From an uncultured bacterium (GTDB lineage: Bacteria > Verrucomicrobiota > Kiritimatiellia > RFP12 > UBA1067), in NCBI GenBank assembly GCA_902802945.1, contig CADCOC010000016.1, forward strand, positions 10,269-74,268: DNA of 64,000 nucleotides, read 5' to 3'. Below are positions 37,376 to 64,000 of the stretch, one piece after another (within the stretch, counting starts at the first letter, position 1; each line of letters starts with the position of its first letter). Below the pieces are notes generated by a model. It searched no databases and was not told the DNA's origin. It worked only from the letters and a program-made list of their open reading frames with translations. Made by a program: the position numbers and the translations under genes.

Positions 37376-40300
37376 TCATCTCACAACGATCATGCAGCCT
37401 TTCGACAACACTTTGATAGTTTTTCTGTCGGCGGAAAGCTTGATCTTATAGCCCTTCACGCCTGCCGCGAGCGCTGGAGCGCTTGTGAATCTCGCCGCGT
37501 TGTTCTCCGCCACCTGCGCGAAGACGAAGCCGCGCGTCAGCGGCTCGGTGAAGTCGAGCGTGGCGTTGGTGAAGTCGAGCGTGCCGCCGCCCGTGAGCGT
37601 GATCGCCCGCGCGCCCGGCGTCGCCTTCAAGACGCAGTTGGTGATGCCGAGATCGTGCCCTGCCGTGTCAAGCGTCACGGCGTTCGCGCCGAAGACAACT
37701 GCGTTCGTGATTCCGCTGATGAACGCTGCTTTGTCTGCGTTCGCCTCGAGCGTGCCGCCGTCAAACTCCACGGTTGACGCACCCGCGCCTCCTGTGATGT
37801 CCGCCGTGACGAGCTTGCCGCTTCCGCTCAGGCGCAGTTTCGCCGTGGAACCCGATCCATGTGCGACATTCATGCCTTTCGCCGCCGTGGCCGTGCCGCC
37901 GGAGATGTCCCAAAGGCCCATCTTGATCGCACCTTCGGAACCCAGGTTCACCCTGTTTGCCGTGATGGTAAACGTTCCGCCCGACATGATGTAGGAGCCC
38001 TCGCTGCCGGTTGACCATCCAATTGAGAGATACCTGTTCGCATTCACCGTTCCGCCGCTCTGCACGAACATTCCGATTCCCGGAACATTTCCCTCATAGT
38101 TGTCCAGGCGACCTATCACGAAGCTATCGCCTACCGTCAGCATGCCCGCTGTGATTTCGTAACGCGCTGTGGACGTGTTCCCTACGCCGAGGTTCAGGTG
38201 GCTAGGCAACGACACCGTACCGCCGTCCTGCCTGAACAGCGTTGGACCTGAATTGTGGTGTCCGAGCGTAATGTAACTGGACGTGGAGAACATCGCGTTG
38301 TTCGTCACGAAAATGTAAATGCCTGAATCGCCATAAGCACCACAACGGAAATGCGTGTGACCCTGGAATTTCAGCGAAGCGTTCCCACTTACGGAAATCG
38401 TCGCCGTGTGGCCGTATCTGCCGGGATATGAATCGCCCGTCACAGTCGTCGTACCGTTCGTCACGAAAAGTCCCGCGTCGGACGCCCAGCCAAGGCCCTG
38501 GTTAGCGATGGTGAACGTTTGGTCGTTCACGCTCTTCACCTCCAAAAAGTCTGTATAGACCGTCACCTTCGCCGTGTCGATGTAGTCCTTCTCGGAGAAG
38601 GCGTTTTCCGTCCAAAGCGCGGGCGTCGTTCCTGCAACGGAGTTCGTCACGTACGCGCCGTTATCCCCTTCAGCCGCCGTGAGGTAGGAAATCTTGAGGC
38701 TGTGTCCGTGGAGGTCGAGATACGAGCCGTCCGCGATGGTCAAGTTGGGCGCGGCAGACCAGTCGCAGTCCGCGCCAAGCGTCACCGCGCCGCCGTTGCC
38801 GCCGCCAATCTGCGTCGTCACCCACACAGGCGTCGTTCCCGCCGGAACGGTGAACGATGTCGTGCCAGAAAGCACGACGACGGTTGACTTCACGGGCAGG
38901 GCGTTTGCCACCACGCCACCCGTCGAGTTGGTACAGGCCCAGTTCGCGGGGTCGTAGAAGTCGGTCGGATCGCCGCCACCGGTCCACCACGCGAACGCGG
39001 CGACGTTCGCGGCGAGGCCGAGTTCGATGGACTTGCCGTCCGCCGAGACGGATGCGACGTAACCGTCGCCGACGAGCTCAACGAAATCGAGGACGTCGTC
39101 CGCACCCTCCGGCAGCACAAAACCGTCCGTCGTTGCAATCGTAAGCGAATCCTCCTGATAAGAGGTGGTGTCAATGCGAATCTTCGCGTTCTCGCCAAGT
39201 GTGACCTTGCCGCCAAACGCGACGGAGTTCGTAAGGACGAGCGTCGTGCCGCTGGCGACCACGCTGTCGCCCCCAACCGTCAGCGTCCGGGCAAGTGCGA
39301 GCGAGCCGCCGCCCGTGACCGTCAGTCCGCCCTCGCCCGTCCACGGAATGTCGCAGTGGACGTTGTGTCCTGCCGTGTCGATCGTGAGGCCGCCAGCGCC
39401 GATGGTGTAGGTTTTCGCGTAGCCGTCCGCCGACGCGACCTTCGCCATGAACGGCGCGACCGCGGTATCGTTGTTTTTGGCGCGGATCGTCGCACCGTCA
39501 GCGACCAGCATCTGCCTGTTGTACGCAAGACACTTAAGAACGCCAACTTCGAGGACGCCTCCCGTGAGATGCACCTCGCTGCGGCCAGGAGTCGATGTGT
39601 TCGCGCCCAAGTAGAAGTTCCCAACATCGGCGACGCCGCCCGAAAGCTCGAACACGCCCTTGCCATTGTTGCCATTTAGACCGTTGTACACCGTCCCCAT
39701 CGAAAGATCACGGTCGATCTGAAGGAGACCGCCGCTTACGCGTACGATGCCGGTCAGGTAAGTACTGCTGCATTGCGCCGCGATTCGCAGATACCCCCTG
39801 CCAGAGCCACCAGCGGCATGAAAGACGCCGCGTTTCACCTCAAGTATCGACAGACCTGGATATTGAACACCGACGAAGTTTCCACTGTTGCTGCCATTAT
39901 CTGCCGTCGTAAGCGAACCGCCGTCAATCACCAGTTTCGTCGTCACGGCGTAATCACTTGCAACACCGGCATAGTTCAGGGCGATGCGGCTGTTTGCCTG
40001 TGCGGAGAAATCTGCAACAAAACCATCGGCAAACTTAATCGTGCTACCCTGATATGCTAAGGACACACCTGCCGACGGACGCCACGTGCCGTTCGTCAAC
40101 ACGATTTCTTCGCCGTTGTAACGACGGGAATTTATCGTAAACGAGCCGGTGTATGTGTCACCCCCAAAATCAAGTATGCCTTCTTTTGGTATGATAGACG
40201 CGGGCTTTGTGGCATGAGAGAGGACAAGCGTGCCCTTGCCTTCCTTCTTCGGCGTAGTGGCGGTGAGTCCGCCGGAGAGCGCGAGGCGTCCGCCTTCCGC

Positions 40301-41650
40301 AACGTAGATGCTGCTATTGTCCGTGGAGAGCGTGACGGGCGCGGTGATGTCCTGCGCGGCGACACTCGCGTCCGCGATGTCCTGCGAGAACGAAAGGCCG
40401 TCGCCACCAACCGTAAACGCCCCGGCGGTGTCCGTGAACGCCAGGCGCGCGTAGGAAGATTCGGCGGGCGTGTCCGCGCCGCCAGCGGCGGCGGAATAGA
40501 CGAGCGCGGAGTCGGCATCGGCCGCATCAAAGGAAAGGTAAAGCGTGTTGCCGTCGCGCAAAAGCACGCCCGCACCGCCGCCGGAGATGGTGATCTGTCC
40601 GAGCGAGCCGTCAAGCGAGGAAGTGCAGGCAATCAGAGGATAGCGTCCCGAAGGAGATTCCGGCAGCGTCACGTTGAGCGTGGCGGGGCCAATGATTTCG
40701 AGGTTTGGCGTCGTGATAGGCGTCGTACCTGCGTCGAGCGTACCGAGGTTCAACGTGATGCCGTCGAAGATAAGGCCGTAGGTGAGCGTCGATTGCGAGA
40801 ACGTGACGGCGCCGCCTCCCGTGAGGCGCAGCTTGCCGGTGCCGGTGAATGCGGGAATCGATTGCGCGAATCCTGCGGTGTCGAAGGAAGCTGGGATACC
40901 GGTGATCTGCATCGTCCGCGTCTTGGTGTTGGAGGCATTGAACGCCTCCACATTGAAGATGTTGGCCTTCGTTGCGACAAGCGTGCCGTTGTGCCATGTG
41001 AAGACTTGTCCGTTGCCCGTCCTGAAGGTGATGTTGCCCGTCGTCAGCGTTCCGCCGTTGAGGTTGAGAGTGGACGTGCCGGTACTGACTGTTTTGGTGC
41101 CCATGTAAACCGTCCCAGCCGTCGCCTCGCCGCCGTTGATGGTGATCGTTCCAGACGCTGTGACGCCGACTTTGTCATCCCACTGCGCCGAGCTGCGCAA
41201 CACGGCATCAACCTTGAGAACGCCGCTGTTGAGCGTGAGCGTAGAAGTGTTATTTTTGCCGATGCCGCTTCCCACGGCAAGGTATCCAGCTCCGTTGTCT
41301 GTCGAACACCAAAGCGTACCGCCGTTGATGTTCACGACTGCACCAGAATAGCCGTTTTCGATGCCGATGAAGTTGCAACTACTGCTGCTGTTGCCGCCAA
41401 ACTTCATGTAGGCTCCCTCATTGATGGTCAACGTACCTTGCCACAAAAGCAACCTTCCCGTCGTGTCGAGGCGATACCCCTCTCCAACGGTCGCCGTTCC
41501 CACATTTGAACTTGCGTTACCTTTGCTGCCAACCTCATAGCTCGCGGTACTTTCTGCCGCCAGCGCATTGCCCACGCAGAGCGAAACTGCGGCGACCGCG
41601 AGAACCCAACTCGCGGACTTCACAAAAGAAACATTCTTCATCGCTTTCAT
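37376..41650 (-). CDS. Large exported passenger-like (beta-helix) protein ending KGCMIVVR
   Basis: Signal peptide, many G/T-rich xxGG.L repeats, TIDTAGH motifs. No C-terminal beta-barrel. Confidence 0.85.
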   Translation of the reverse strand: MKAMKNVSFVKSASWVLAVAAVSLCVGNALAAESTASYEVGSKGNASSNVGTATVGEGYRLDTTGRLLLWQGTLTINEGAYMKFGGNSSSSCNFIGIENGYSGAVVNINGGTLWCSTDNGAGYLAVGSGIGKNNTSTLTLNSGVLKVDAVLRSSAQWDDKVGVTASGTITINGGEATAGTVYMGTKTVSTGTSTLNLNGGTLTTGNITFRTGNGQVFTWHNGTLVATKANIFNVEAFNASNTKTRTMQITGIPASFDTAGFAQSIPAFTGTGKLRLTGGGAVTFSQSTLTYGLIFDGITLNLGTLDAGTTPITTPNLEIIGPATLNVTLPESPSGRYPLIACTSSLDGSLGQITISGGGAGVLLRDGNTLYLSFDAADADSALVYSAAAGGADTPAESSYARLAFTDTAGAFTVGGDGLSFSQDIADASVAAQDITAPVTLSTDNSSIYVAEGGRLALSGGLTATTPKKEGKGTLVLSHATKPASIIPKEGILDFGGDTYTGSFTINSRRYNGEEIVLTNGTWRPSAGVSLAYQGSTIKFADGFVADFSAQANSRIALNYAGVASDYAVTTKLVIDGGSLTTADNGSNSGNFVGVQYPGLSILEVKRGVFHAAGGSGRGYLRIAAQCSSTYLTGIVRVSGGLLQIDRDLSMGTVYNGLNGNNGKGVFELSGGVADVGNFYLGANTSTPGRSEVHLTGGVLEVGVLKCLAYNRQMLVADGATIRAKNNDTAVAPFMAKVASADGYAKTYTIGAGGLTIDTAGHNVHCDIPWTGEGGLTVTGGGSLALARTLTVGGDSVVASGTTLVLTNSVAFGGKVTLGENAKIRIDTTSYQEDSLTIATTDGFVLPEGADDVLDFVELVGDGYVASVSADGKSIELGLAANVAAFAWWTGGGDPTDFYDPANWACTNSTGGVVANALPVKSTVVVLSGTTSFTVPAGTTPVWVTTQIGGGNGGAVTLGADCDWSAAPNLTIADGSYLDLHGHSLKISYLTAAEGDNGAYVTNSVAGTTPALWTENAFSEKDYIDTAKVTVYTDFLEVKSVNDQTFTIANQGLGWASDAGLFVTNGTTTVTGDSYPGRYGHTATISVSGNASLKFQGHTHFRCGAYGDSGIYIFVTNNAMFSTSSYITLGHHNSGPTLFRQDGGTVSLPSHLNLGVGNTSTARYEITAGMLTVGDSFVIGRLDNYEGNVPGIGMFVQSGGTVNANRYLSIGWSTGSEGSYIMSGGTFTITANRVNLGSEGAIKMGLWDISGGTATAAKGMNVAHGSGSTAKLRLSGSGKLVTADITGGAGASTVEFDGGTLEANADKAAFISGITNAVVFGANAVTLDTAGHDLGITNCVLKATPGARAITLTGGGTLDFTNATLDFTEPLTRGFVFAQVAENNAARFTSAPALAAGVKGYKIKLSADRKTIKVLSKGCMIVVR

Positions 41651-45202: not shown

Positions 45203-48200
45203 CTACTTGACGATCACCGTAAAGCCACGGCCAATGCAAATGTAGCCATCGGCGTCCTGCGTTGCACGGGCTCCGTTGAACCTGATTCTCCTGAGCGTCA
45301 CCCTGGGGAGCGCGGTTGTCACGCGCAATCCCGGGTGCTGGAGATCGCCCGTGAGGTAAAGCGTCGAACCTTCCGGGATGGTGAGGTTTGCGCAGGTGAA
45401 CGATGCGCCGTCGCCAAACGTCATGGCGGAGGATGCGGTCAGCGTCACAGATGCGACCTCGTTCGACGTCCCCGCCGCAAGCGCGAGCGTTCCACCCTGA
45501 AGCGAAATCTGGTTGGCCGCCGCCATCGACCCTTCCGCCCGGTTGAGAAGGAGCGTCCCTTCCCTCACCTGGATCGGCTGGTTCAACGTCGCGATCCCGT
45601 CAAGGCGCATCGTCCCCGCACCGGTCTTGATGAAGGACGAGGACTTGTAGCTTCCGTCCGAGGAGATGTTTCCGGCCATCACGAAGTCCACTCCCTCGCC
45701 CGCGACGGTATCCTCAACGTCGATCGTGACGTTGTTGACGCCAGTTGACTTGTTCGTTCCCAGTACGGTGAAGTACCCGTTAAATGTCGATGCTCCCGTT
45801 CCCGAAACCTTCAAGACGGGATCGGACGCCGTAAAACCGAACTGGAACGCACCGCCCGTTACGGAGGCCGACGCCGCATTGGAGAGCGTCAGGTAGTAGA
45901 TGTAGGTGGATCCCTCAGAGTGCGTCAGCGTCGCGCCATCCAGAACGACCTCGCCACTCGCGTAGTGGTACGGATATGCCTTTGCGCTCGTCGCCGTCGT
46001 TCCTGGATGCATCGTGATGGTGTCCGTTCCCTTCGTCATGCCGTCGTTGTATGTGCCCGCGCCCGAGAAGGTGAGTGTGGCATTGCCCCAGAAGTCGATC
46101 ACCTTGGGAAGAGCATACTTCACGGCGACGTCATACACGATCGGGTGCGCCTCGTCGCCCCGGACGACGAACGCGCTGTCGGTCATCGTGATTGCGCCGT
46201 TGGCCTTTACCGTCGCCGTGGGCGCGGCGGCACCGTCCGTCGGCTCGCCGAATGCGTTGGCGTCGAACGTCACCTCCACGCCCTTGCCGGAAAGCGCGGG
46301 GAACGTCTGCGTCCCCGTCGCGGCGAACGTCAACTTGCTCATGTCCTCGGCCGCCAGCGGCGTCACGTTCGTCACGCCAAGGATCTCAAGGGCTCCGGCC
46401 GTCGTGAAGGCGTTCGCGATCACGGACCGTCCGCCAAGCTCGCCACCTACGCCGGGGAATATCTTCGCGTTTGCGGCGAAGTTGAGGGCTTCGTTGGAAA
46501 GCACGAGCGTTTCGCCCGGAGCGGGCGTCATGTGCAGCTCCTTGATCAGGAAGCCGGTAGAGGTATACTCGTAGATGATCTTGCCATTGGAAATGCTCAC
46601 AAGATGCTTCACGCCGGAGGCTGTCTCTATCGACTCGACGCGATACGCATGCGCTCCGCGCACAATGGTCAGCACGCCGCTGCCGATGATGCGGAGATTG
46701 TCGAGGGCAACATCCTCGTCGAGCGTCAGAGTCGCGTCGCCGTCCGTCAAGTTGACAACTGCGCTGCCGTTCGTCGGCGCCGCGATGGAGGTCTCCCCGA
46801 TTAGCCAAGAGGCCGCGCCCCACACGGCGGACCCGGACAAGTCGAGCGTCGGCACCCCGGTGGATATGTCGCACGGACGCGACGGCGTGAACGTGACGCT
46901 GTTGCCCGAAACGCTTGCTCCGTCGGGAAGTCCCACGAACGGAACCGTCACCGTAGGATCGGCAACATACCGCCCGGTGAGCGTCAGTGCCACGTTGATC
47001 GGCACCCACACCTCCTCATCCGTCCAGGTCGTTCCGCCGTCCGTCGAGAATTCAAATCCGGAGATGCCCTTCGTCACGCGCACTTCGACGGCTCCATCGG
47101 CGAACCGGTAGCCGTCGGGCGATTCCGACAGGTTGAAGCGCTGGCTGTCAACGTACCAGTTGCGCAGCCTTTCATCAGCGGTCAACACACGCGACGTCAT
47201 GCGCACGGCGCAGATTTCAGATTTGTCGTAGAGTTTATTGTTGCCGGCATAATCCGCGCCAATCCATATGTTCGTTTGTGTGGGATTTACGCTTCCGCCC
47301 CCCGTCTTGTGAATCTGATTCGTTGCGTTACAGTATGTCGTAGCCCCAGTCGAATCGCACACCACCGCGATGTACTGCCGCTTGTTCCATTTCGTTATGG
47401 CACTGGTCCCGAACTGGCTTCTGGAATTCCACCCGCTTTCACGGTACTGGACACCTTGAACGAGCGGATTGCTGCTATTCTTCTGACGCAGATCAACCAC
47501 AAGCTGACGATGGGAACTGTCTTCTCCGAAAAACGTCCAATATTCGTAGCTGTCCTTTACCTGATTGCCAGGATTAGAAATCACCAGCTCCAGCGTGAAC
47601 GCCTTGGAGGCGAGGGCATCCTTGGCGGCGGTGGACGAAGTCTGGAAATAGCTGCTGCCGTCCGTCTTCCATGCGTCGTCGATGAATCCGGCCGCGCCGG
47701 TCTTGGTCAGCGTCAGATTGCCCATGAGGTCAATCCATGTCGGCGCCGCAGCCTGGTGCATTCCCACGCCCACGTTATCGATTGCGTCAAGGTGGGCGAT
47801 CAGCGCGGCGGTTCCAGACTGCGCGTAGGCGGAAACCGGTTTCGTCGAACGCACGAAGTTGGCGCGAAGCTGCGCCACTCGGTCGAGAGAGATTGTGATG
47901 ATCGCATCGGACGCGCTCCCGCCAGTTATCGCACGGGTGTCGCCCGCCCAGCCCGTGAACATGTAACCCGACGCAGGCGTCGCCGTCAGCGTCACGTTCG
48001 TTCCGTAGGGGATCCAACAGCAGCCGTCTGCCTCCGGCGTGATGACGACACCCTCTCCGTCGCGCACGGCAACGCTCCCCTTCGCCGTGCTGTCAGGCGC
48101 CGCGTAAACCTTGGCGTAGAGCGTGCCGCTCTCGTACTTGTAGTCGTCCGCAGACCCGAAGCCGGCCGTGTAGGAAAGCGCGGTCGAGGGGCTCGGCATG

Positions 48201-49913: not shown

Positions 49914-49996
49914 CCAAAACAGTCTTTGCTTTAGATTTCGCTTTTGTCCGTGTTTTTGTCCGTGTAGAACGTGTAGAACGTGTTGTTGCGCGCGGG

Positions 49997-53066: not shown

Positions 53067-53170
53067 CTTGACGATGAGCATGAAACCCTTGGTCGTGCGC
53101 TTGATCGTCACGCCGGGAACGGTCTTCACGTAAACGTTTGAATAACGGACGATTTGCGAAGGCCGATGTC
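53064..53170 (-). pseudogene. Orphan C-terminus of a lost array member
   Basis: Reads ...YSNVYVKTVPGVTIKRTTKGFMLIVK-stop with an in-frame stop upstream. The last 9 codons are identical in DNA to the end of the 54553 gene. Confidence 0.8.
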
Positions 53171-54552: not shown

Positions 54553-57500
54553 CTACTTGACGATGAGCATGAAACCCTTGGTGCGTTCAAGCCGTAAACC
54601 TTCGGCCCTGGGACGTAACTTGAACCCAAGCATGGCTGTTTCTGCGTCAAGCTTAAACGCCACGTCGGACGGTGCGGAGTTCCATGTGACGATATACGGC
54701 TCGTTCGACTTCGCGAGCGCCATCAAATCCGACCGCCCGGCAAGGTTCACGTTCACCGTCGAGTGCGCGACGAACTGGACGTTCGTCGCACCCGTCTTGA
54801 AACCCGATGTCATCGGCCAACCCGCGCTTTCGGGCCACGCGCGCAGATCCATCGTCGAACCGTCCTGCATGGTCGGTCCGTAGAAATTCGTCGAAACCGG
54901 CTTGAACGTGCGATAGACGTTCAAGGCGCCGGTTCCGGCGTTGCTTGTTCCCGTATAGAGCGCTTCGTAGTCACCGACATCGAGCGCCCTGGTCGTTTCG
55001 ATGTTCAACGCACACGACACCTCAAGGTTCACGGTCTTTGCGTCTATCGCGATGTTCTTGAACGTGTCCGTGTGGAGCGTTCCACCGGAAACGCGGATGG
55101 TTCCATTCGTGATGGTCGTTCCAACAGCCCCCGAGCCGCCAAGTTCGAACGTTACGCCGGATGCCATCGTCACGTCAAGGACATGCCCGCCGAGATCAAC
55201 GGTATGCGTACTCCACAAATGCGGATGCGAACCGGATTGAGCAACGAAATACGAGTCGGCAAGAAGGCGTGTCGCCCCGAAAATACATCCGTAGTATCCG
55301 TCGGAAGTTTTTTTGTCATAATCGAAAACGACCGTGCCACCGTGCAGGACGAGTCTGTAAATGGTGTACCAGCTGTTGGCAAGCTCGAAATTCGCCCCGG
55401 ACATGATGTCAATATCCTTGAGGTTCGAAACCGTACCGTGCCCGAACGGCTCATAGTCGGAAGCTTTGGTAGTGGACCTCAACGTGCCGGCGCGGATCTC
55501 CGTCATGCCGGTGTACGTCTGCTTGGCAGTCGTAGATACCGTAAGTTTCCCAGCGCCCGTCTTCACGAACTTCAAGTTGCCGCCGAGCCGGACATTGGAG
55601 TTCTCGCTCGTGGCGTTCGCCGCCACGTCCACGCAGAATTCCGAAAGAGTTGTCGTGTTGCCGTTTGTCACCGTGGTGGCCGAAGAAGCGTCAAGGCCCG
55701 CGACCACAAGCGCGTGTCCGTTCAGGTCGATTTTGCTTCCTGCGGCAGAGGACATCACGCCCGTTCCCAAACCCCGCCAGTCGCAATTCTCCGACAACGT
55801 GCAGTCGCCTATTGTGAGCGAATAGCACGTAAGAACCTGTCCTGTGGGAACATTGAACGTCGTTGCGCCGGAAACGGAAACGTACGTGTTCTCCCCGGGA
55901 ATCGTGCCAGCGAGCAAAGTCCCTTCATAGTTTCGGCACTGCCAGTTTTGCGGGTCGGACACATTGTTTCTGTCTCCGCCGCCTATCCATTCAGCGTAAA
56001 TCGGCACGTCGGCGGCGAATGTAATCACAAGCGTCTTGCCGTCCGCGCCGAGGACTACGCTGCCGCGTGACGCGGAAACGAAGTCCGCAACGCTCTTCCC
56101 CGCAGGGACGCTAAATCCCTCCGCAGCCGTGAATACCGTCACGCCAGGCACGATGTCGGCACTTCCCATGTCGATGACGAGAGACGAACTCTCGGCAAAA
56201 GCGACCGCGCCCGTGATGGAAACATCGGGGGGAATGGTGAGCGTCACGCCCTCGCCGATGTTCAGCGAGCCAAATGAATCCATCGTCTTGAGCGCGTCGG
56301 TCGAGTATGTAAACGCGGCGTTCACATATCCTTCTCCGCGACCGCAGTCAAGCGTGAGCGAACGCGCCTTCGGCTGGGCGTCGAACGTCAGCGTAAGGTC
56401 GTCGGCCACAAACGAGATTATCGGATCCCCGAATATGCCAGAACCCATGAAATGCCCCCATTCCATGTTTTCCTTCAAGGGGGTGAACGGGAGGGCGTAG
56501 AGGTTGTAGGCGGAGTATGTGCCGCTTGCATCGGCGGTGGTGCCTGGCACGAAAACGTTCCTCTCCGACGAGAAACCGCCGTTCTCGGTGAAGTAACGAT
56601 ACGCGAACCCCAATGAATATTGCGCACGAAGCGCATAGCCATGGACGTCCGTGCCGTCGTCCGTAAAGTCGGCGAGTATGTGATGGTCGTAACCCCATGG
56701 GCGGAAGTCCACCTTCAGGTCCGTGACGGTGCCGTTCCCGTCCGATGTCACGATTCGCTGCAGACCCTGTGCCGGACGCCCAGACACCCCCGCGCCGCCA
56801 TTGCGACGGATTGAAAGATACATGTCGCGGATGTCGTCGAGCGAACATCCGCCGAACGCCTTTGCGCTGGATGTCTGGAGGTAGCCGGTGCAATGGTAGA
56901 GCGGCATGTCGTCCCACACTTCCACGGACGAGATGTACAGTACGCCGTCATTCACTTTGTCGCCGCAGAGAATGAATCCGTCGCCTGTGAAACTTGAACG
57001 CAGGTCCGTCTCCGACTCAAGCGACACGGATCGGACACCGTCGAGCGTGGACGCCGAACCCGCGGCGCCGAAATGCGCCGTGAACGAATGCCAGGCGAGG
57101 GTCGTGACCGTGCGCGAGAGAAGCGCGCCGTCTTTGTTCTTGTCCGCGCCGCTGCTTGCGTAGTTGTTCTTGTTCTCGAACTGCGACGTGCCGAACTCGG
57201 CCTCCCTTGCGCGTATGAGATTGTATCCGTTCACAAAGTACAGCTTATCGGCGGCATTGCCGTAGTCGGGCTGGATAAGGCTGCGCTGATGCCCAGCCCC
57301 CGCTGGCACGTAGAAGCGGATGCGCACCATCCATTCCTTGTCGCGCACGATTCCCGCCGGCAGAGGCATCTTCAAATGCGAACCCGATGGGATGTTGAGC
57401 GCGTAGTCGCCGTCTGCGAGACCTGGCGCCTGATCCGCGCCCACAACGGTAATTGAGTTGCCGAGCGTACCGTCGGTGATCGCCGTTGAAGTTCCTTTGC

Positions 57501-57681
57501 CGCTGCATGGAATCGCCGCAAGGTTTCCAACGGTCGGCGCGAGAATCGCCGCGCTCCTGGGGTTTTCGGGGTCGTAGTTGTTGAAGTCCCATCTAGCGAC
57601 AAGACCCGCCCACGACGGAGCCATCGCGGTTGCCGCGATTGCCGCCGCCGAGACGGCGGCTTTCCAGGTTTGGTTTCTCAT
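54553..57681 (-). CDS. Large exported passenger-like protein ending KGFMLIVK
   Basis: Signal MRNQTWKAAVSAAAIAA, LVARWDFN, KTGAGKLTV...TYTG.TEI.AGTL autotransporter-associated strand. Confidence 0.88.
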   Translation of the reverse strand: MRNQTWKAAVSAAAIAATAMAPSWAGLVARWDFNNYDPENPRSAAILAPTVGNLAAIPCSGKGTSTAITDGTLGNSITVVGADQAPGLADGDYALNIPSGSHLKMPLPAGIVRDKEWMVRIRFYVPAGAGHQRSLIQPDYGNAADKLYFVNGYNLIRAREAEFGTSQFENKNNYASSGADKNKDGALLSRTVTTLAWHSFTAHFGAAGSASTLDGVRSVSLESETDLRSSFTGDGFILCGDKVNDGVLYISSVEVWDDMPLYHCTGYLQTSSAKAFGGCSLDDIRDMYLSIRRNGGAGVSGRPAQGLQRIVTSDGNGTVTDLKVDFRPWGYDHHILADFTDDGTDVHGYALRAQYSLGFAYRYFTENGGFSSERNVFVPGTTADASGTYSAYNLYALPFTPLKENMEWGHFMGSGIFGDPIISFVADDLTLTFDAQPKARSLTLDCGRGEGYVNAAFTYSTDALKTMDSFGSLNIGEGVTLTIPPDVSITGAVAFAESSSLVIDMGSADIVPGVTVFTAAEGFSVPAGKSVADFVSASRGSVVLGADGKTLVITFAADVPIYAEWIGGGDRNNVSDPQNWQCRNYEGTLLAGTIPGENTYVSVSGATTFNVPTGQVLTCYSLTIGDCTLSENCDWRGLGTGVMSSAAGSKIDLNGHALVVAGLDASSATTVTNGNTTTLSEFCVDVAANATSENSNVRLGGNLKFVKTGAGKLTVSTTAKQTYTGMTEIRAGTLRSTTKASDYEPFGHGTVSNLKDIDIMSGANFELANSWYTIYRLVLHGGTVVFDYDKKTSDGYYGCIFGATRLLADSYFVAQSGSHPHLWSTHTVDLGGHVLDVTMASGVTFELGGSGAVGTTITNGTIRVSGGTLHTDTFKNIAIDAKTVNLEVSCALNIETTRALDVGDYEALYTGTSNAGTGALNVYRTFKPVSTNFYGPTMQDGSTMDLRAWPESAGWPMTSGFKTGATNVQFVAHSTVNVNLAGRSDLMALAKSNEPYIVTWNSAPSDVAFKLDAETAMLGFKLRPRAEGLRLERTKGFMLIVK

Positions 57682-57788: not shown

Positions 57789-60095
57789 CTATTTGACGAT
57801 AATCATGAGTCCGCCGCGACGGCGCAGATAGCCGCTGGAATCGAGCGACACGCGCTCGCCGTTATAGGTAACCTGGCGCAATTGCGCGGCAGTTAGGCCG
57901 TTCTCCGACGAGCCGAAACGCAGGGAGCGCGTAGGCAGCTTGTCGTCGCCGGTGATCGCCAGTGTTGCCCCCGGCGTCCACGACACACCGCTGGAATCGG
58001 CAAAAGCAAGCGAGCCTCCTTCAAGGTTGATCGCCGCGTCGCCGGAGAGCGTCAGTACGCCCGTCGTGTTCGTCGTTGAGCCGCACGTCACCGTTCCGCC
58101 GGCAAGCGTCAGAGGCGCGGACGACGGAAGCGATGTATTACTCCCAAGAGCGACAGTCCCATCCTCTATGGTGAAGCGGCCTGCAAACGTGTTATTGCCC
58201 GAAAGCGTCAAGGTTGCCGCGCCGCGCTTGACGATTCGTGCACCTTGGTTTGCTTCGTTTGTACTGTCGTATATTCGACCAGTGATTGCGAGATCCGACA
58301 ACGTTGTGATATACAGGACGTTCGTCTTGCTCCCAGTCGCGTTGTGGCGCAGGAGGTCGATTCCCGTGTCGATCAGATTGGCGGCGGAACCGGCGCTCAC
58401 GTAGTGCGTCTCGTTCGTGACGTTGGGATATCCGCAGCGCAACGCATTTCCTATGACGCTCGCACCGTTCGTCAGCACCAGTTCATTGATGTAGTTGTTG
58501 CCGTCGAGGCTTGAGCTGTGGTACTGGTGGTTGTAGAGCGTGGAAGCGTCAAGAACATATTTGCCCTGCGACTTCGTCACCAGTCCCTGCTGCACAAGCA
58601 ACGTGCAGCCAGGCTCAAGCCATTGCGTCGTGCCCGCACCGAGAGGCGACGCACCGCCGTCGGCATACGTGAACTGAGGGCCATAGTTCACCTGTGAGCC
58701 GTTGCGGGCGACGACAAACGTCGGCATCGCGTTCTTCGTGGTGAACACGATCTGCGCGTTGTCCACTACCGCGTCCTGACATGCGTTCGCCACGCTCAAC
58801 GTAAGCGAAGGAGTCTCCACGCTGTTAAATGTGAGGGACTTAATGCCATAGCTACCGTTGTTGTTCTCTATGACAGACGTACCAAGCTCCGCCTGCTTCG
58901 CAACAAGGTCGCATCCAAGCATATCCGTAGTTCCTCCATTGCCCGTTGGCCACCACCAGCCCCTAACTCTTCGCGCGGTGACGTTTGCACCCACCTGCTT
59001 CAACTCGACTAACGCACCCTTGATGCCGCCGGAGTGGAACTGAAGCTGGAAAGACATCGTCTCGCCATCGAACTTGTAGTGGTAAATGGATGGGTTTGCG
59101 TTGAAACCAATCGCAGAGCCGCGCATAACCGCACTTGCGGGCGTTGAGCGCAAGAGGACAAGATTCGTCAACACCGTCGCTCCCGCCGTGCTGGACATCC
59201 ACTGCGCCGCCGCCTTCTCGACATTTGGATCGGTTATGCCGAATGTCCGTTGTACCGTCGCATCGGAAAGCCCGCGCACGTCGAGCCGCCCATTGGGACA
59301 CTCAACTGCGTTCGTCCACGTATGTGCAAACGGAGCCGTCACCTCCACTCTCATATTGGAGAACTTGAACTTGCCGCCGAAGTCCGTCTCGCCAACGACC
59401 CCCAGCTTAGCCGTGTACGCAGCAAGGTTACATACGCCATATCCGCTCGTAGTGCGCGACGTCGCCACATTGTTGCCCCTCACCTTCGCGTTGTTGACAT
59501 CCATTCCCTTCCAAAAGTTACCATCTTGAACATAGCACGCGGAAGCTGATCTGGCATGGATGCCGTCACTCTCCTCGGTTAGCTCGACGTTCACGCATTT
59601 AACAATACCCTGAAGTATCTGGAACTGGACGCTTCCTGTTGTGCCGTTATACGTGTAGCGATAACCATCTGCCGGGAAAATGCTGCTGCCGCCCGTGATG
59701 GCGCTGCCGCCCATCACCGCCGTGAGGGCAGTGATTTCAGAAAGCCTCAATCCGGGGAACACAAGCACGGAACTGTTCTTGGGCAGAAACACCTCATCAT
59801 CGTTACTCGATGCGGCGATTCCCGTAAGCGTCAGCGTACCCGACGTCGTGAGGTTCGAGACCGTCACCGCGCCGTCGAGCGTGACCGTCGCCGCGCTTGG
59901 GAACACGGCGCTCGCGCCGTCAACCCATGCGGACGGCGTTTCGCCGTCTAACCAGTTCTCGCCCGTGGTCCACGACGCGCCATCTGCGCCGTTCCAGGTT
60001 AGCGTCTTGCCGTCGGCATCCGCCCACGACGGCAACGCCGCCGCTACGCAGATTGCCGCCGCTGAGATGGCGGCTTTCCCAGTTAGTTTCCTCAT
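57789..60095 (-). CDS. Exported passenger-like protein ending GGLMIIVK
   Basis: Signal peptide, TWNG...NW, KRGAATLTLSGNNTFAG..TI.DGT. Confidence 0.88.
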   Translation of the reverse strand: MRKLTGKAAISAAAICVAAALPSWADADGKTLTWNGADGASWTTGENWLDGETPSAWVDGASAVFPSAATVTLDGAVTVSNLTTSGTLTLTGIAASSNDDEVFLPKNSSVLVFPGLRLSEITALTAVMGGSAITGGSSIFPADGYRYTYNGTTGSVQFQILQGIVKCVNVELTEESDGIHARSASACYVQDGNFWKGMDVNNAKVRGNNVATSRTTSGYGVCNLAAYTAKLGVVGETDFGGKFKFSNMRVEVTAPFAHTWTNAVECPNGRLDVRGLSDATVQRTFGITDPNVEKAAAQWMSSTAGATVLTNLVLLRSTPASAVMRGSAIGFNANPSIYHYKFDGETMSFQLQFHSGGIKGALVELKQVGANVTARRVRGWWWPTGNGGTTDMLGCDLVAKQAELGTSVIENNNGSYGIKSLTFNSVETPSLTLSVANACQDAVVDNAQIVFTTKNAMPTFVVARNGSQVNYGPQFTYADGGASPLGAGTTQWLEPGCTLLVQQGLVTKSQGKYVLDASTLYNHQYHSSSLDGNNYINELVLTNGASVIGNALRCGYPNVTNETHYVSAGSAANLIDTGIDLLRHNATGSKTNVLYITTLSDLAITGRIYDSTNEANQGARIVKRGAATLTLSGNNTFAGRFTIEDGTVALGSNTSLPSSAPLTLAGGTVTCGSTTNTTGVLTLSGDAAINLEGGSLAFADSSGVSWTPGATLAITGDDKLPTRSLRFGSSENGLTAAQLRQVTYNGERVSLDSSGYLRRRGGLMIIVK

Positions 60096-60144: not shown

Positions 60145-62688
60145 CTACTTGACGATTACCATCAAGCCCTTTGGAATGCTGACGTACACCGTCTCGCCCT
60201 TGGCCACGAGCTTCGCGCAATCGCCCCTCGTCACCGTTGACGCATCCAGCGTCAGATTCGGCACGACGGCCGCCGCAGCCTCGGCGGAAGCCAGCGTGAG
60301 AACCGGATACTTGCCGGGCTTGAGCTGGGTCGTGCCGCCGACCACGATCCGCGCACCGGCCGCCGCCGTCGCGCTGTTCGCCGTCACCGGCGCGGTCGCG
60401 TCCGCCGTGAGGTTGCTGACAACGAGCGCCGTATCCGCGCTGAAGGCCAACGTACCGCCGAGCGTGGTTCTGCCCGACGGGACAACAAGCCGCGTGCTGT
60501 CCTGCAACGTCACGTTGCCCCTGCCGGGACGGGCTCCGTTCTTCACCTCGACCGTCGCAGAATCCTTGACGGTCAAGCCTCCGGCAAAGTCGTTGTCGTT
60601 GATGCCCGTGTTTGCAAACACGAACCGTCCGATGCCTTGCACGACGACCAAGACCGTGCTGGCGTAGTCAGCCGACGAGCCTCCGATACCGCTCTCCGCC
60701 GTGATTGTCCGGCCTACTGTGTTGTCGTAGTAGTCAGTCGTGTCGAACGTCACCGTGGTGTTGCCGGAACTGCCGATTTTGCGAATGCCCTTGTTAGTCG
60801 TGCCCATATTGGAATGGTTGTTGAAGTAGATCTGCCAGTCGGCGTAGGAACCGAAATAATGAGAACCTGAGTTGCTGATGCGAACGTAGCCGCTTGCACC
60901 GTGAATGATGCCATTTGATCCGACAATCGTCTTCGTAGGGGTGTACGGCGAAACGAGAACTGCAGTCGTGCGAAGTTTTGGTGTAATGAAAACACCGCCG
61001 CCAGTTGTATTCTCCAAATATCCGCCGCCGCCCCCGTTATTAAGTTCTGTATTGGAATAGATTTCGTTTGTGGCCTTGAACACGCCGTAGTTCCTGTTGA
61101 CAAGATGCTTGCTTCCGCTTCCATTTGTCTTTGTGTTCTTGACCGTCACCGTAGCGCCGCTCTCAATCGTAAGCCTGTTGTTATGATCGTAATACGTTCC
61201 ATCCAGCAGATTGAGTTCCGATCCCGTCTTCAATGTTGAGCCATTTGGCGGGGACCAATCTCCGGTCGTCGTTATGTTGTATCTGCCGTAGAAAGTCGTG
61301 TGGTTGGATATGTTCACCCCCGTCGCGCCGCCCGCGAAGTTGACGTGTCCGCTTGTCGCCGTCACGTTTATCTTGTCGCTAAACGCAACTGCGTTCTGCA
61401 GCTCGTTCGCCTGTCCGTTCCGGCAGACGACACTGATGACTCGCGCCATCGCCGTACCCGTCACAGTCACCTTCCCCGCGCCGGACTCGAATGTCAAGGT
61501 CTGGATCCGGAAGGATGCGTCAGACGGATTGTAGTTGACGGTTACGTCGCCGCTCTGCGGAAACACGAAATGGCTGTAGCCGTCTATCTGCACGGGAACG
61601 TTGCCGTCGTCGTCGATCCAGTTCGCGAGAGTGAACCACTGCGGCTCTGACTCATTTGCATTGCCAGTCCATGTGTACACCGTCTTGCCCTTGAACGTCG
61701 CCAGGAGCTGCACGGCCGTGTCGCTCGTCACCGTGATGGTCTGGCTTTCCATGTCGCCGGAGGTGATCGCCCATGTGTCGCCGGACCAGGACACGAAATC
61801 GCAGTCAGTGGCAGGCGTCGCCTTGAGCGTCACGTTCGAGCCGCGAGCGACCCATGCCTCCGCCGTGCCGGACGCCTCCGCGCTCCCAAACGCCACAGAG
61901 CCCTTCTCCGTGTCGGAGGCGTAGGCGTGGAACTTCGCGGAGAACACACCGTCCACGTACTTGTAGTCATCCGCGCTTCCAATACCATCGGAAAAGGTGA
62001 GATCGGAGGATGGGCTTGACTCCGCCTCGCCGTGGAACGCGTTGCCGATCACGTCGTAGAACCCAGCCGCGCCGAGCTCGTTCGTCGCCGGCGCAAGGAA
62101 TACAGCCGGCGTCGTCGCCGTGCTGCTGTCCGCCGCCTCGAAGCTGTAGATGTTCTTTGTTCCGGCCACGTAGTTACCCGCCCTCAAGGCGAAGAGACTC
62201 AACGACGTCGTGGCCGTACTGTTATGCGTATATGTTTGCGTCTTTGTCTGAGCACCCGTTCGATCGTAAAGGCTCAGAACCGCCGTCTCTTCAGTTTTGG
62301 AAGAGTGCGTGACTGTCATGATCCTGCGTTGCGCATCAATCGCGCTAAACGTGGAAGCGGAACTGCCGGAATCTCGATAATACCATTTGTAATTCCGCCT
62401 GCCGCTGCCACTGGTCGTGTAGAACGCGCAGTTTGGGTTCTCGGCCGTATTTCCGAATATGCCCTGGTTGTCGAGGCTCGCCTGGGTCAGCTGAAAATCG
62501 ATGAAGTAGCGCGAGAGCGCCTTTGCGCAATACCCCGTATCAACCCTGTTCACGCCATGCGACTGCACGTATGCGTATGGCTGGAGCGTATGCGTTTCCG
62601 CCCACGACGGCAACGCCGCCGCTACGCAGATTGCCGCCGCAAGCGCGGCGAGTTTGCCGCACATTGATTTGATGATTGTTGAGTGCAT
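60145..62688 (-). CDS. Exported passenger-like protein ending KGLMVIVK
   Basis: Signal ...AAAICVAAALPSWA, shared with the neighbouring gene. N-terminal module shared with the 45203 gene. Confidence 0.88.
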   Translation of the reverse strand: MHSTIIKSMCGKLAALAAAICVAAALPSWAETHTLQPYAYVQSHGVNRVDTGYCAKALSRYFIDFQLTQASLDNQGIFGNTAENPNCAFYTTSGSGRRNYKWYYRDSGSSASTFSAIDAQRRIMTVTHSSKTEETAVLSLYDRTGAQTKTQTYTHNSTATTSLSLFALRAGNYVAGTKNIYSFEAADSSTATTPAVFLAPATNELGAAGFYDVIGNAFHGEAESSPSSDLTFSDGIGSADDYKYVDGVFSAKFHAYASDTEKGSVAFGSAEASGTAEAWVARGSNVTLKATPATDCDFVSWSGDTWAITSGDMESQTITVTSDTAVQLLATFKGKTVYTWTGNANESEPQWFTLANWIDDDGNVPVQIDGYSHFVFPQSGDVTVNYNPSDASFRIQTLTFESGAGKVTVTGTAMARVISVVCRNGQANELQNAVAFSDKINVTATSGHVNFAGGATGVNISNHTTFYGRYNITTTGDWSPPNGSTLKTGSELNLLDGTYYDHNNRLTIESGATVTVKNTKTNGSGSKHLVNRNYGVFKATNEIYSNTELNNGGGGGYLENTTGGGVFITPKLRTTAVLVSPYTPTKTIVGSNGIIHGASGYVRISNSGSHYFGSYADWQIYFNNHSNMGTTNKGIRKIGSSGNTTVTFDTTDYYDNTVGRTITAESGIGGSSADYASTVLVVVQGIGRFVFANTGINDNDFAGGLTVKDSATVEVKNGARPGRGNVTLQDSTRLVVPSGRTTLGGTLAFSADTALVVSNLTADATAPVTANSATAAAGARIVVGGTTQLKPGKYPVLTLASAEAAAAVVPNLTLDASTVTRGDCAKLVAKGETVYVSIPKGLMVIVK

Positions 62689-63086: not shown

Positions 63087-64000
63087 CTACCGCACGAGGA
63101 TCATGATGCCGCGTGTGATGTACAGGCCGTCGTCCTTCTTTTGCAAGCCGAAGTGCTCGCCTTCGGCGCTCGTGAACCTCAGAGTGGCGAGGTTCGCCGG
63201 CGTATTGCCCGTCCAGTCAACGATCTTGTCGCCGGTCTTGACCTTTCTCTCGCCCAGCTTGATCTTGACCGTCGCGTTGTCGGCAAAGGAGACGGTCTTG
63301 CGCGCCGTCTGCTGTTCCGTCGTAAGGCCATAAGTGCTGGCCCCGTTCGCGATCGAAGACTGTATCGACCAGGCCCCGGTCTTCCCCGACAGGTCGATCG
63401 TCGAGCCGTTCATCATCGTACAGCCGTAGAACGTCGTGCTGATCGGCGTGAACGTTCCGTACACGTTCAGTCCATACGCCGTACCCGTTCCCCACTGGTT
63501 CTGCGAGCCCGCAATCTTGTAGTCATGCACCGACGCGGGGTCAAACATGTGTGCCCGGACGTTGATCTCGACATCCACGCCGTTGCCGTCAGCGGGCAGC
63601 TTGCCGACGTATTCCACGGAGGAATCAAACACGAACCGGCCCGTCTCGCCTTCCAGCGACGCATCAATGTAGTAGTACTGCGATCCGGTCCCGCCCGAGA
63701 ATGTCAGCGTGTGCCCGTCAAGATCCAAGTGACTGCCCGCCGCCCCGATATGCAAATTGACGTCTCCACCGTTCAACAGCATGATCTGCGAGTCGGCCGT
63801 GACCGCCGTGAGCATCGCGACATCTCCGCTGAGGTTGCCGTACAGCAGTCCGCCAGCGAGGACGATGTCGTTTGTGAACGTGTGCGAACTCTGCACCATG
63901 AACGTCGCATTGCTCTCAACGGTTACCGCGCCCGTGCCGTACACGGTGAAATCGCCCTCTCCGCTGTAGGTCACCGAGTTGGCGGGCTCCTGGGCCGTGC
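63087..64000 (-). CDS. C-terminal part of another array protein ending RGIMILVR (5' end off window)
   Basis: Frame is open to the window edge. LNVYGTFTP...FYG.TM..GST.DL block shared with the 54553 gene. Confidence 0.85.
   Translation of the reverse strand, partial: TAQEPANSVTYSGEGDFTVYGTGAVTVESNATFMVQSSHTFTNDIVLAGGLLYGNLSGDVAMLTAVTADSQIMLLNGGDVNLHIGAAGSHLDLDGHTLTFSGGTGSQYYYIDASLEGETGRFVFDSSVEYVGKLPADGNGVDVEINVRAHMFDPASVHDYKIAGSQNQWGTGTAYGLNVYGTFTPISTTFYGCTMMNGSTIDLSGKTGAWSIQSSIANGASTYGLTTEQQTARKTVSFADNATVKIKLGERKVKTGDKIVDWTGNTPANLATLRFTSAEGEHFGLQKKDDGLYITRGIMILVR

What the first reader, a model, noticed from the sequence alone, without database searches (positions are those of the whole stretch)
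37376..64000. Barrel-less passenger proteins share a C-terminal G-x-[MT]-h-h-V-[KR]-stop motif, a candidate novel sorting signal
Seen: seven otherwise dissimilar proteins and one relic end in KGCMIVVR, RGFTVIVK, SGLMIIVK, KGFMLIVK (twice), GGLMIIVK, KGLMVIVK and RGIMILVR. The six complete ones have Sec signals and beta-helix-like repeats. None has a type Va barrel, PEP-CTERM helix, LPXTG or terminal aromatic residue. The 37376 and 63087 ends keep the peptide pattern with different codons, so the constraint acts on the protein. Inference: this short terminal beta-strand is a lineage-specific signal for outer-membrane export or anchoring by machinery encoded elsewhere.
Basis: partly seen in the sequence, partly recalled or inferred. 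Interest (0 to 1): 0.85.

Follow-up and report, generated by a model that had tools for sequence, protein, structure and literature searches.

The report
Seven-residue tail on exported proteins
About a hundred large exported proteins of this rumen Kiritimatiellae bacterium, built from unrelated domains, all stop with the same seven-residue greasy tail ending in lysine or arginine, which behaves like an undescribed address or docking label whose reader is still unknown.

Summary
All seven genes and the relic end in G-x-[MT]-h-h-V-[KR]-stop at the stated places. The motif is not confined to these paralogues. Genome-wide, 53 of its 87 six-frame occurrences are followed by a stop, against 1.9 expected. 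A crude gene call finds 94 genes with the tail. At least 66 of the 77 complete ones carry a Sec or Tat signal.

The tail follows unrelated last domains, in 42 similarity groups. It stays unpaired in two AlphaFold models and matches no curated family. In more distant homologues a PEP-CTERM or a T9SS-type domain sits at the same place. The terminal basic residue is a lineage dialect: orthologues elsewhere end in F, L, H or Y.

A modular C-terminal sorting or docking tag is the best reading, but it is unproven. I found no reader. Exosortase, BamA, PDZ proteases, neighbouring genes and small PEP-CTERM proteins gave no support. Earlier sessions of this scan reported the same kind of tail in at least seven other Kiritimatiellae genomes. 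New here are the Tat-exported cargo, the dialects, and the tail's coexistence with a complete PEP-CTERM/exosortase system.

The parts
37376..41650 (-). Exported protein of about 1424 aa ending in KGCMIVVR. The tail codons plus stop lie at 37376-37399.
   Evidence: The signal peptide starts at codon 17 of the ORF. No Pfam family was found.
45203..49579 (-). Exported protein of about 1458 aa (InlB B-repeat, LamG) ending in RGFTVIVK.
   Evidence: The signal-peptide-like start lies 52 codons into the ORF.
49997..52960 (-). Exported protein of 987 aa ending in SGLMIIVK.
53064..53168 (-). Relic: a 34-codon ORF ending in KGFMLIVK. It is a duplicated gene end plus the intergenic repeat.
   Evidence: Its last 27 nt are identical to the end of the 54553 gene. 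The flank is 85% identical over 180 nt to window 57631-57808.
54553..57681 (-). Exported PATR protein of 1042 aa with the CTD-A end domain, ending in KGFMLIVK.
57789..60095 (-). Exported PATR protein of 768 aa ending in GGLMIIVK. It was the query of the homologue search.
60145..62688 (-). Exported protein of 847 aa (InlB B-repeat) ending in KGLMVIVK.
63087..64000 (-). 3' part of a gene with the CTD-A end domain, ending in RGIMILVR. Its 5' end lies beyond the window and beyond the contig.

Best explanation
The tail has the consensus G-[FLM]-x-[IL]-[IL]-V-[KR]-COOH in this genome and G-h-x-I-x-h-x in relatives. I read it as a portable C-terminal tag added to many unrelated proteins that leave the cytoplasm by Sec or Tat.

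The tag does not belong to the fold of the last domain. It hangs free as a short, strand-prone hydrophobic peptide with a free carboxylate.

My best reading is that a shared envelope component recognises it after export and folding, probably by adding it as an edge strand (beta-augmentation or donor-strand type). The result would be to pass the cargo across the outer membrane or to hold it at the cell surface. That is the job done by PEP-CTERM or T9SS C-terminal domains in homologous proteins of other bacteria.

Shown: strict terminal position, enrichment, export signals, modularity, conservation at the protein level, and positional equivalence to known anchors.

Inferred: that it is read at all, by what, where the cargo ends up, and whether the tail is cut off.
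For: (1) Position and enrichment.
- 53 of 87 motif occurrences abut a stop, against 1.9 expected.
- 94 of 4063 crudely called genes carry the tail.

(2) Export.
- 53 of 77 complete tail genes of at least 200 aa look signal-peptide-bearing by a crude rule, against 813 of 2906 other genes.
- By eye, 13 of the 24 misses also have a signal. Two of these are twin-arginine signals on Metallophos enzymes.

(3) Modularity.
- With the last 8 residues removed, the C-terminal regions fall into 42 similarity groups: one of 33 members (CTD-A), then 6, 4, 3, 3, eight pairs and 29 singletons.
- Carriers include PATR, LamG, InlB-repeat, DUF642, DUF4886, BspA-LRR and Metallophos proteins.

(4) The tail lies outside the fold.
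- In the CTD-A model (pLDDT 88.6) the last strand is residues 138-142, residues 143-150 are coil, and block pLDDT falls from 98 to 74.
- In the DUF642 model (pLDDT 82.9) the last strand is 524-537, the tail 542-548 is coil, and the last block has pLDDT 50.

(5) Choice of anchor among 72 homologues of the 57789 protein.
- 63 end in a G-h-x-I-x-h-x tail.
- 3 carry a PEP-CTERM immediately after the same conserved G-[YF]-L strand.
- 1 carries Por_Secre_tail.
- 3 end in ..F-x-R-L-[KR]-V...

(6) Conservation.
- The CTD-A profile finds 1092 clusters at E <= 1e-3.
- 131 of the best 150 end in the tail by a strict rule, with G at -7 in 116. Only 5 clearly lack it.
- DUF642 orthologues keep it too.

(7) Codons vary synonymously, roughly as in the genome overall.

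(8) No NCBIfam model matches the last 40 residues of any of the 7 window proteins. The single listing, E = 0.1, is a tetracycline-efflux model.
Against: No reader was found. Nothing conserved sits next to tail genes.

Phylogenetic profiling was uninformative. Among 201 genomes sampled from the class, the K/R form is strongly enriched only in this genome: 82 hits against 4 in the control. Two genus-mates show 12 against 2 and 14 against 1. The CTD-A family occurs in only 3 of the 201.

The tail meets only some of the published hallmarks of small sorting signals. It has a single near-invariant residue, five hydrophobic residues rather than a membrane span, and one basic residue rather than a cluster.

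The linker to the last strand is only 2-6 residues long. A purely structural role, such as an edge strand formed on oligomerisation, is therefore not excluded.

There is no experimental localisation or C-terminal proteomics for any carrier. Signal-peptide calls rest on my own crude rule plus inspection by eye, not on a trained predictor. Eleven of the 77 complete carriers have no recognisable export signal; they may be fragments, wrong starts or spurious ORFs.
Confidence: 0.55

Rival explanations
1. The tail is a structural element with no sorting role. It would be a sticky terminal strand that mediates self-association or co-aggregation of surface proteins (a strand zipper), or that caps an exposed sheet edge once the proteins are packed.
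For: The tail is very strand-prone, rich in beta-branched I and V. It lies only 2-6 residues after the last strand. It is free in monomer models, as expected for a strand that pairs only in an assembly. No reader was found.
Against: It follows many unrelated folds. It is exchangeable with PEP-CTERM and T9SS-type domains, which are sorting signals. It is restricted to proteins with export signals. The strict requirement to be the very last residues suggests that the free carboxylate is read.
Confidence: 0.15
2. The tail is a miniaturised PEP-CTERM processed by the genome's exosortase.
For: It stands exactly where distant homologues have PEP-CTERM. The genome encodes two exosortase homologues. 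The order 'small residue, hydrophobic run, basic end' mimics the tripartite layout.
Against: Five hydrophobic residues cannot span a membrane, which the intramembrane enzyme's substrates do (passages).

The genome keeps 13 full-length PEP-CTERM proteins by regex, of which 6 are found by PF07589. All are small, 155-236 aa, so exosortase already has its own cargo.

Five relatives with few or no tails each have an exosortase.

The second exosortase sits beside a VIT-domain protein and GTPase genes, not near tail genes.
Confidence: 0.07
3. The tail is a handle for a periplasmic protease or chaperone that binds C-termini (PDZ type). It would govern the turnover or quality control of giant exported proteins rather than their destination.
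For: The strict C-terminal position and free carboxylate fit PDZ-style recognition (recalled general knowledge). The genome has exported PDZ proteins: two DegP-like, one Prc-like and two tricorn-like.
Against: A conserved degradation tag on about 100 large, costly proteins is hard to rationalise. The last residue is basic here but aromatic or aliphatic in sister lineages. Those PDZ families are widespread housekeeping families (recalled). No binding was tested.
Confidence: 0.08
4. The shared end is a DNA-level by-product: a mobile or recombining 3' cassette or repeat that carries the last codons and the stop, with no selection on the peptide.
For: TAG is the stop in 48 of 94 tail genes, against 639 of 3084 other genes. 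CGG supplies 26 of 48 terminal Arg codons, against 16% genome-wide. A dispersed repeat lies 14-31 nt after the stop of several tail genes (7 of its 37 copies follow a gene that ends in the tail or a near variant of it), and the relic is a copied gene end.
Against: Codons at every tail position vary synonymously. All three stop codons are used. The peptide is kept over more than 1000 clusters at 50% identity, and in orthologues of 35-83% identity, while the residues before it diverge. 30 of the 37 repeat copies are not behind tail genes.
Confidence: 0.03

Closest known systems
PEP-CTERM / exosortase (PF07589, TIGR02595; Haft 2006, PMC1569441, seen only as a search listing) and the other tripartite C-terminal sorting signals. 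Their defining features are as listed in passages of bioRxiv 10.1101/2023.06.07.544157.
   Same: It sits at the very C-terminus and occurs many times per genome. It is found on signal-peptide proteins of varied architecture. It occupies the same position after the same conserved strand as PEP-CTERM in distant homologues.
   Different: It has 7 residues rather than about 20-25 and no membrane-spanning helix. It has one basic residue rather than a cluster, and only one near-invariant residue (G). It coexists with a separate, complete PEP-CTERM/exosortase set in the same genome. Exosortase presence does not track tail abundance.
T9SS C-terminal domain (Por_Secre_tail, PF18962) of Bacteroidota
   Same: It marks large, folded, Sec-exported surface or secreted proteins of many families. 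One distant homologue of the 57789 protein carries it at the C-terminus.
   Different: The T9SS signal is a folded domain (the Pfam model has 75 positions); the tail is 7 unstructured residues. PF18962 found nothing in this genome, although that search's control genomes were also silent.
Outer-membrane-protein beta-signal read by BAM (recalled: a terminal strand ending in an aromatic residue)
   Same: It is a short terminal strand-like peptide with hydrophobic residues at alternate positions. Sister lineages end it in F or Y.
   Different: It is not part of any barrel: no PF03797 barrel was found in the genome and none in the carriers. In this genome the tail ends in K or R, while its own BamA and OMP-like proteins end in F, Y or W. 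Tat-exported, pre-folded enzymes also carry it.
Donor-strand complementation in chaperone-usher and type V pili (recalled from general knowledge, not tested)
   Same: This is a possible mode of reading. A short terminal strand with alternating hydrophobic residues and a glycine would be inserted into a groove of another protein.
   Different: No acceptor with an open groove is known here. The carriers are not pilins.
Prepilin-peptidase site [KR]-G|F-T-L-[IV]-E of type IV pilins and T2SS pseudopilins
   Same: The local sequence is similar. The genome's 15 regex matches to prepilin-like N-termini read [RK]-x-G-F-T-L-[VIL]-E. Tails read [KRS]-G-[FLM]-[MTV]-[IL]-I-V-[KR].
   Different: The tail is at the C-terminus, not the N-terminus, and is exported to the periplasmic side. 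It has no Glu at +5 and no following helix. The resemblance may be coincidental.

Membership tests
Tripartite C-terminal sorting signals (PEP-CTERM, LPXTG, GlyGly-CTERM, MYXO-CTERM and others) | Location at or very near the C-terminus, with many occurrences in one genome | tested here: met
   The tail directly abuts the stop. 94 genes carry it.
Tripartite C-terminal sorting signals | [quoted passage not shown] | tested here: not met
   Only G at -7 is near-invariant (116 of 131). The other positions are classes of hydrophobic residues.
Tripartite C-terminal sorting signals | A hydrophobic segment long enough for a transmembrane helix | tested here: not met
   There are five hydrophobic residues between G and the last residue.
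Tripartite C-terminal sorting signals | A cluster of 2-5 basic residues at the end | tested here: not met
   There is a single K or R. In sister lineages the last residue is F, L, H or Y.
Tripartite C-terminal sorting signals | Most carriers have an N-terminal signal peptide and varied architectures | tested here: met
   At least 66 of 77 complete carriers have a signal. The rest of the proteins fall into 42 C-terminal similarity groups and at least 7 Pfam families.
PEP-CTERM / exosortase | A match to the PEP-CTERM model, and co-occurrence with exosortase | tested here: not met
   PF07589 hits 6 small proteins, none of them a tail protein. Exosortase is present in this genome and in 5 of 5 relatives, whatever their tail count.
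T9SS C-terminal domain | A folded C-terminal domain matching PF18962 (model of 75 positions) | tested here: inconclusive
   There is no match in the genome, but the family rang in none of the 14 control genomes either. The 7-residue tail cannot itself be such a domain.
Type Va autotransporter | A C-terminal beta-barrel translocator (PF03797) | tested here: not met
   No match in the seven window proteins or anywhere in the genome. The control rang in 3 genomes.
BAM beta-signal | The terminal strand of a barrel, ending in an aromatic residue | tested here: not met
   Tails here end in K or R. BamA and other OMP-like proteins of the same genome end in F, Y or W. There is no barrel domain in the carriers.
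LPXTG / sortase | An LPXTG motif followed by a membrane span | tested here: not met
   No LPXTG is seen in the last 40 residues of the seven window proteins. I did not search for sortase genes.

The most novel reading that the evidence does not exclude
The tail is the cargo signal of an undescribed export-and-anchoring route in gut and rumen Kiritimatiellae. An envelope receptor or translocon would grip a free seven-residue C-terminal strand by beta-augmentation. It would handle already folded cargo, including Tat-exported metalloenzymes and proteins of more than 3000 residues. Reader and tag would co-evolve, giving lineage 'dialects' such as ..IIVK/R here and ..ISFF, ..IIMVL or ..ISVR elsewhere. 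In this lineage it would have replaced direct PEP-CTERM anchoring of the large surface proteins.
Probability: 0.3. Interest if true: 0.85.

Novelty: new variant of a known kind. Interest (0 to 1): 0.6.

Why it matters
C-terminal sorting signals have repeatedly led to new envelope machinery: sortase, exosortase, rhombosortase and the T9SS. A seven-residue tag with no membrane span falls outside the scheme used to find those. It marks about 100 proteins in one genome and more than 1000 protein clusters in gut and rumen metagenomes.

If the tag is read, an unknown machine must exist in a poorly studied but abundant group of polysaccharide-degrading gut bacteria. The tag would then predict which of their proteins reach the surface. 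It could also serve as a very small display tag.

If it is only a sticky strand, it still explains a striking regularity of these proteomes.

Tried and rejected
**Gene neighbourhood.** I clustered the three genes on either side of all 94 tail genes. The recurrent neighbours are glycoside-hydrolase-like proteins, AAA ATPases, regulators and FGE-like proteins. No candidate reader emerged.

**Exosortase.** This genome has two copies and each of five relatives has one, so it does not track tail number. The second copy lies beside VIT and GTPase genes.

**BAM or a shifted beta-signal.** Rejected. There is one Omp85, and OMP-like proteins end in aromatic residues.

**Other barrels.** No TonB-dependent receptors were found and no autotransporter barrels.

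**TonB/TolA-like protein.** There is one weak hit, below the family cut-off, in an ExbB/ExbD-like operon. I did not pursue it.

**PDZ proteins.** Only the usual DegP-, RseP-, Prc- and tricorn-like ones are present. None of the six PDZ proteins looks like a small GspC-type protein; I did not search for GspC itself.

**Tailed sigma factors.** Here, none of the genes overlapping the 17 Sigma70_r2 hits has the tail.

**Small PEP-CTERM proteins as docking adaptors.**
- Eight 'VDW' paralogues occur only in this genome among 61 genomes of the order.
- A complex prediction with the CTD-A domain gave no verdict: score 0.26 against a mark of 0.32, with controls not run. That is neither support nor evidence against.

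**Phylogenetic profiling with DNA patterns.**
- I ran three class-wide scans of 201 genomes each.
- The signal is concentrated in this genome, and dialects blur the counts. No usable presence/absence vector resulted.

**Chimeric bin.** Contigs with and without tail genes have the same GC (0.602 in both) and the same 4-mer principal components.

**Fold search.** The CTD-A model has no PDB match with E below 0.6.

**Literature.** I ran five full-text searches: Kiritimatiell* with C-terminal and sorting; with PEP-CTERM; with signal peptide, secretion system and proteom*; exosortase with sorting signal and Verrucomicrobia; and PATR or PEP-CTERM. None returned a paper describing such a tail.
Full report
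**1. Observation**

The seven minus-strand ORFs that end at window positions 37376, 45203, 49997, 54553, 57789, 60145 and 63087 translate to C-termini KGCMIVVR, RGFTVIVK, SGLMIIVK, KGFMLIVK, GGLMIIVK, KGLMVIVK and RGIMILVR. A 34-codon relic at 53064-53168 ends in KGFMLIVK. Its last 27 bases equal those of the 54553 gene, and its flank is 85% identical over 180 bases to the region around the end of the 57789 gene. It is therefore a copied gene end.

The other tails use different synonymous codons. With the tails removed, only 4 of the 21 protein pairs show BLASTP similarity, at 25-35% identity. The six complete genes begin with signal-peptide-like sequences. Pfam finds PATR repeats in two, InlB B-repeats in two and LamG in one, and no autotransporter barrel in any.

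**2. More than chance, and not confined to the window**

The window lies on contig C16 of a 5.81-Mb, 300-contig genome with 60% G+C.

- In all six frames the core motif occurs 87 times. 53 of these are followed directly by a stop, against 1.9 expected.
- A crude gene call (4063 genes) gives 94 genes ending [GPS]-h5-[KR]. They lie on many contigs, and 47 of the 156 contigs of at least 10 kb hold at least one.
- Their median length is 1043 aa, against 351 aa for other genes.
- Further variants are visible by eye among other large exported proteins, for example ..GFSIFIR..GLVIYVR..GFVLIVQ and ..GVMIIAY. The true number therefore exceeds 94.
- IIVK, IIVR and LIVR are the three commonest C-terminal tetrapeptides of ORFs of at least 300 aa in the genome.
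- Contigs with and without tail genes do not differ in GC or 4-mer composition, so the set is not an obvious binning artefact.

**3. The carriers are exported**

By a crude hydrophobicity rule, 53 of the 77 complete carriers of at least 200 aa have a signal peptide. The same rule finds 813 among 2906 other genes.

I inspected the 24 misses by eye. Thirteen more have export signals:
- two have twin-arginine signals on calcineurin-like metallophosphoesterases;
- several have a long, conserved N-terminal extension before the hydrophobic core.

The other 11 look like fragments, wrong starts or doubtful ORFs. These calls are mine, not those of a trained predictor.

**4. The tail is modular**

After removing the last eight residues, similarity that reaches the C-terminus splits the 94 proteins into 42 groups. 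The largest group has 33 members and shares an end domain of about 60-140 residues, which I call CTD-A (...IKLGER..KIVxW..P.N..L.F....DDGLY..). The rest form groups of 6, 4, 3 and 3, eight pairs and 29 singletons.

The tail follows Ig-like ends, DUF642 jelly-roll ends, solenoid ends and others. The linker is only 2-6 residues. Ten smaller carriers scanned against Pfam gave Metallophos (2), DUF642 (2), DUF4886, BspA-type LRR and four with no family.

**5. The tail lies outside the fold in models**

I made two AlphaFold2 models.
- CTD-A of the 63087 gene, with 33 paralogues as the alignment: mean pLDDT 88.6. The last strand is residues 138-142, residues 143-150 are coil, and block pLDDT drops from 98 to 74.
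- A 548-aa DUF642 carrier, with 10 homologues: mean pLDDT 82.9. The last strand is 524-537, the tail 542-548 is coil, and the last block has pLDDT 50.

The CTD-A model has no significant PDB neighbour. The best matches, at E of 0.6 or more, are beta-helix and autotransporter-passenger structures.

**6. Relatives**

*Homologues of the 57789 protein.* I found 72.
- 63 end in a G-h-x-I-x-h-x tail. Their last residue is R in 23, L in 17, F in 10, K in 5, H in 4, Y in 3 and N in 1.
- The closest ones use K or R. More distant ones end in ..GLVISVF, ..GLIISFH or ..GFIIMVL.
- Three proteins, named by their source 'autotransporter-associated beta strand protein', carry a full PEP-CTERM (..PEPS.., a hydrophobic helix, then RRRR) directly after the same G-[YF]-L strand.
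- One carries Por_Secre_tail.
- Three end in ..F-x-R-L-[KR]-V...

*CTD-A profile.* It finds 1092 clusters in 1.84 billion representatives. 131 of the best 150 end in the tail by a strict rule, and only 5 clearly lack one.

*DUF642 orthologues.* They keep the tail in several dialects: GLVIIVK, GLTIIVR, GFIISFF, GIVITVR and GLVISFR.

*Which positions are conserved.* These are G at -7 and the hydrophobic residues at -6, -4 and -2, which form one face of a strand.

*Organisms.* Public records holding homologues are titled Kiritimatiellae bacterium MAGs from sheep and goat omasum, and rumen 'RUG' genomes. This agrees with the earlier notes on this genome.

**7. Distribution among species genomes**

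- In a sample of 201 genomes of the class, a DNA pattern for G-h5-[KR]-stop gives 82 hits here against 4 for the reversed control.
- The two genus-mates give 12 against 2 and 14 against 1. Most others are near background.
- The strict pattern gives 58 hits here and 0-4 elsewhere.
- A pattern for the dialect with a polar residue at -3 gives 6 hits against 0 in another genus of the family, and 1 here.
- CTD-A occurs in 3 of the 201 genomes.

The tag is therefore widespread at low copy number and hugely expanded in this genome. That left me no usable contrast for phylogenetic profiling.

**8. Known systems**

- No NCBIfam model matches the last 40 residues of any of the seven window proteins.
- The genome has two exosortase genes, and 13 small proteins (155-236 aa) match my PEP-CTERM regex, six of which PF07589 also finds. 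Five relatives each have one exosortase, whatever their tail count. The tail therefore coexists with PEP-CTERM sorting and is distinct from it.
- The genome has one Omp85. Its own barrel-like proteins end in F, Y or W.
- PF00593 (TonB-dependent receptor barrel) and PF03797 (autotransporter barrel) found nothing in the genome.
- Against the published hallmarks of small sorting signals (passages read), the tail meets position, multiplicity, signal peptides and varied architecture. It fails on a three-residue signature, a membrane span and a basic cluster.

**9. Mechanism**

*What is shown.* The tail is a protein-level, strictly terminal, portable tag on exported proteins. It lies outside the fold and is positionally interchangeable with two kinds of known sorting signal.

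*What I infer.* I give the following reading a confidence of 0.55.
- A shared envelope component reads the tag after export. Tat cargo is folded before export, and the models leave the tail free.
- The reading is probably by strand addition, with the carboxylate gripped.
- The outcome is passage across, or retention at, the outer membrane.

*What stays open.* Whether the tail is cleaved at the glycine is unknown. The local likeness to the prepilin site [KR]-G|F-T-L-[IV]-E of this genome's own pilins is noted, but topology argues against the same enzyme.

*Rivals.* These are a sticky assembly strand, a miniature exosortase substrate, a protease or chaperone handle, and a DNA-level cassette. The excess of TAG stops and CGG codons, and a dispersed repeat after some tail genes, fit common descent of the tail modules better than a mobile cassette. 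Codons vary and all three stops occur.

**10. Novelty**

Earlier sessions of this scan reported the same kind of tail in at least seven other Kiritimatiellae genomes. As a phenomenon it is therefore not new to the scan. My five full-text searches and the curated libraries hold nothing on it.

This window adds:
- the largest single-genome set so far seen by me;
- Tat-exported cargo;
- lineage dialects of the last residue;
- coexistence with a complete, separate PEP-CTERM system;
- negative results for several candidate readers.

I could not see supplementary files of any paper. They are unlikely to bear on this.

Noticed in passing
window 22267-35871, minus strand: Three giant exported proteins (1302, 1524 and 1688 aa) share a different C-terminus, ...DKGA[IL]KFYKA[VK]IE-stop. 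Related ...FFKAKIEEGR ends lie beside tail genes in other Kiritimatiellae contigs (L033, L035) and at G000 C14:3901-5892. This looks like a second class of shared end domain.
   Followed up: partly
window 35892-37292, minus strand: A TolC-like outer-membrane efflux protein (Pfam OEP, E = 3e-44) lies directly downstream of the 37376 tail gene and upstream of the giant KFYKAVIE proteins.
   Followed up: no
window 49953-49983, 53020-53050 and 57745-57775; 37 copies in the genome: A dispersed repeat with core ACACGTTCTACATGTTCTACACGG (tandem GTTCTACA units) lies 14 nt after the stop of three window tail ends. Only 7 of its 37 copies follow a gene ending in the tail or a near variant. It is probably the 9-mer repeat family noted earlier for this genome.
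   Followed up: partly
genome-wide (G000): Tail genes use TAG as the stop in 48 of 94 cases, against 639 of 3084 other genes. CGG supplies 26 of 48 terminal Arg codons, against 16% genome-wide. Many of these genes therefore end in ...G-TAG, the tetranucleotide reported as the REP target in earlier notes.
   Followed up: partly
G000 C23:30083, C107:16769, C148:2009, C104:8126, C9:7148: Giant tail proteins (1632-3576 aa) share a long conserved N-terminal extension (MEK.ICN.P.GKAKTSRFARVVAL...) ahead of the hydrophobic core. It recalls the extended signal peptides of large autotransporters.
   Followed up: no
G000 C170:3660, C201:3127, C111:7053, C121:881/7214/13748, C277: Eight small paralogues have a mature N-terminus A-x-V-D-W, a Pro/Gly-rich stalk and a full PEP-CTERM. 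They were found only in this genome among 61 genomes of the order. All 13 PEP-CTERM proteins here are small (155-236 aa).
   Followed up: partly
G000 C56:12000-25000 (L016): A second, divergent exosortase (78 bits) lies next to a VIT-domain protein and three dynamin/GTPase-like genes. Five relatives lack this second copy.
   Followed up: partly
G000 C196:1894-5371, C112:23135-26352, C175:195-2252: A recurrent cassette pairs small Ig-like tail proteins (227-297 aa) with FGE/SUMF1-like exported proteins. At C196 it also includes a Tat-signal metallophosphoesterase that carries the tail.
   Followed up: no
G000 and proteins P0018, P0026, P0028, P0223, P0225: Many gene models begin with the same pseudo-N-terminus, M[AT]TGKALNGKPYAGNPHVRFDEGE, upstream of the real signal peptide. 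It is probably the translation of a repeat element rather than protein.
   Followed up: no
whole genome G000: No match was found for the TonB-dependent receptor barrel (PF00593) or the autotransporter barrel (PF03797). There is one Omp85 and one ExbB/ExbD/TonB-or-TolA-like operon (C38:8708-10830). This is a sparse outer-membrane protein repertoire for a 5.8-Mb diderm.
   Followed up: partly
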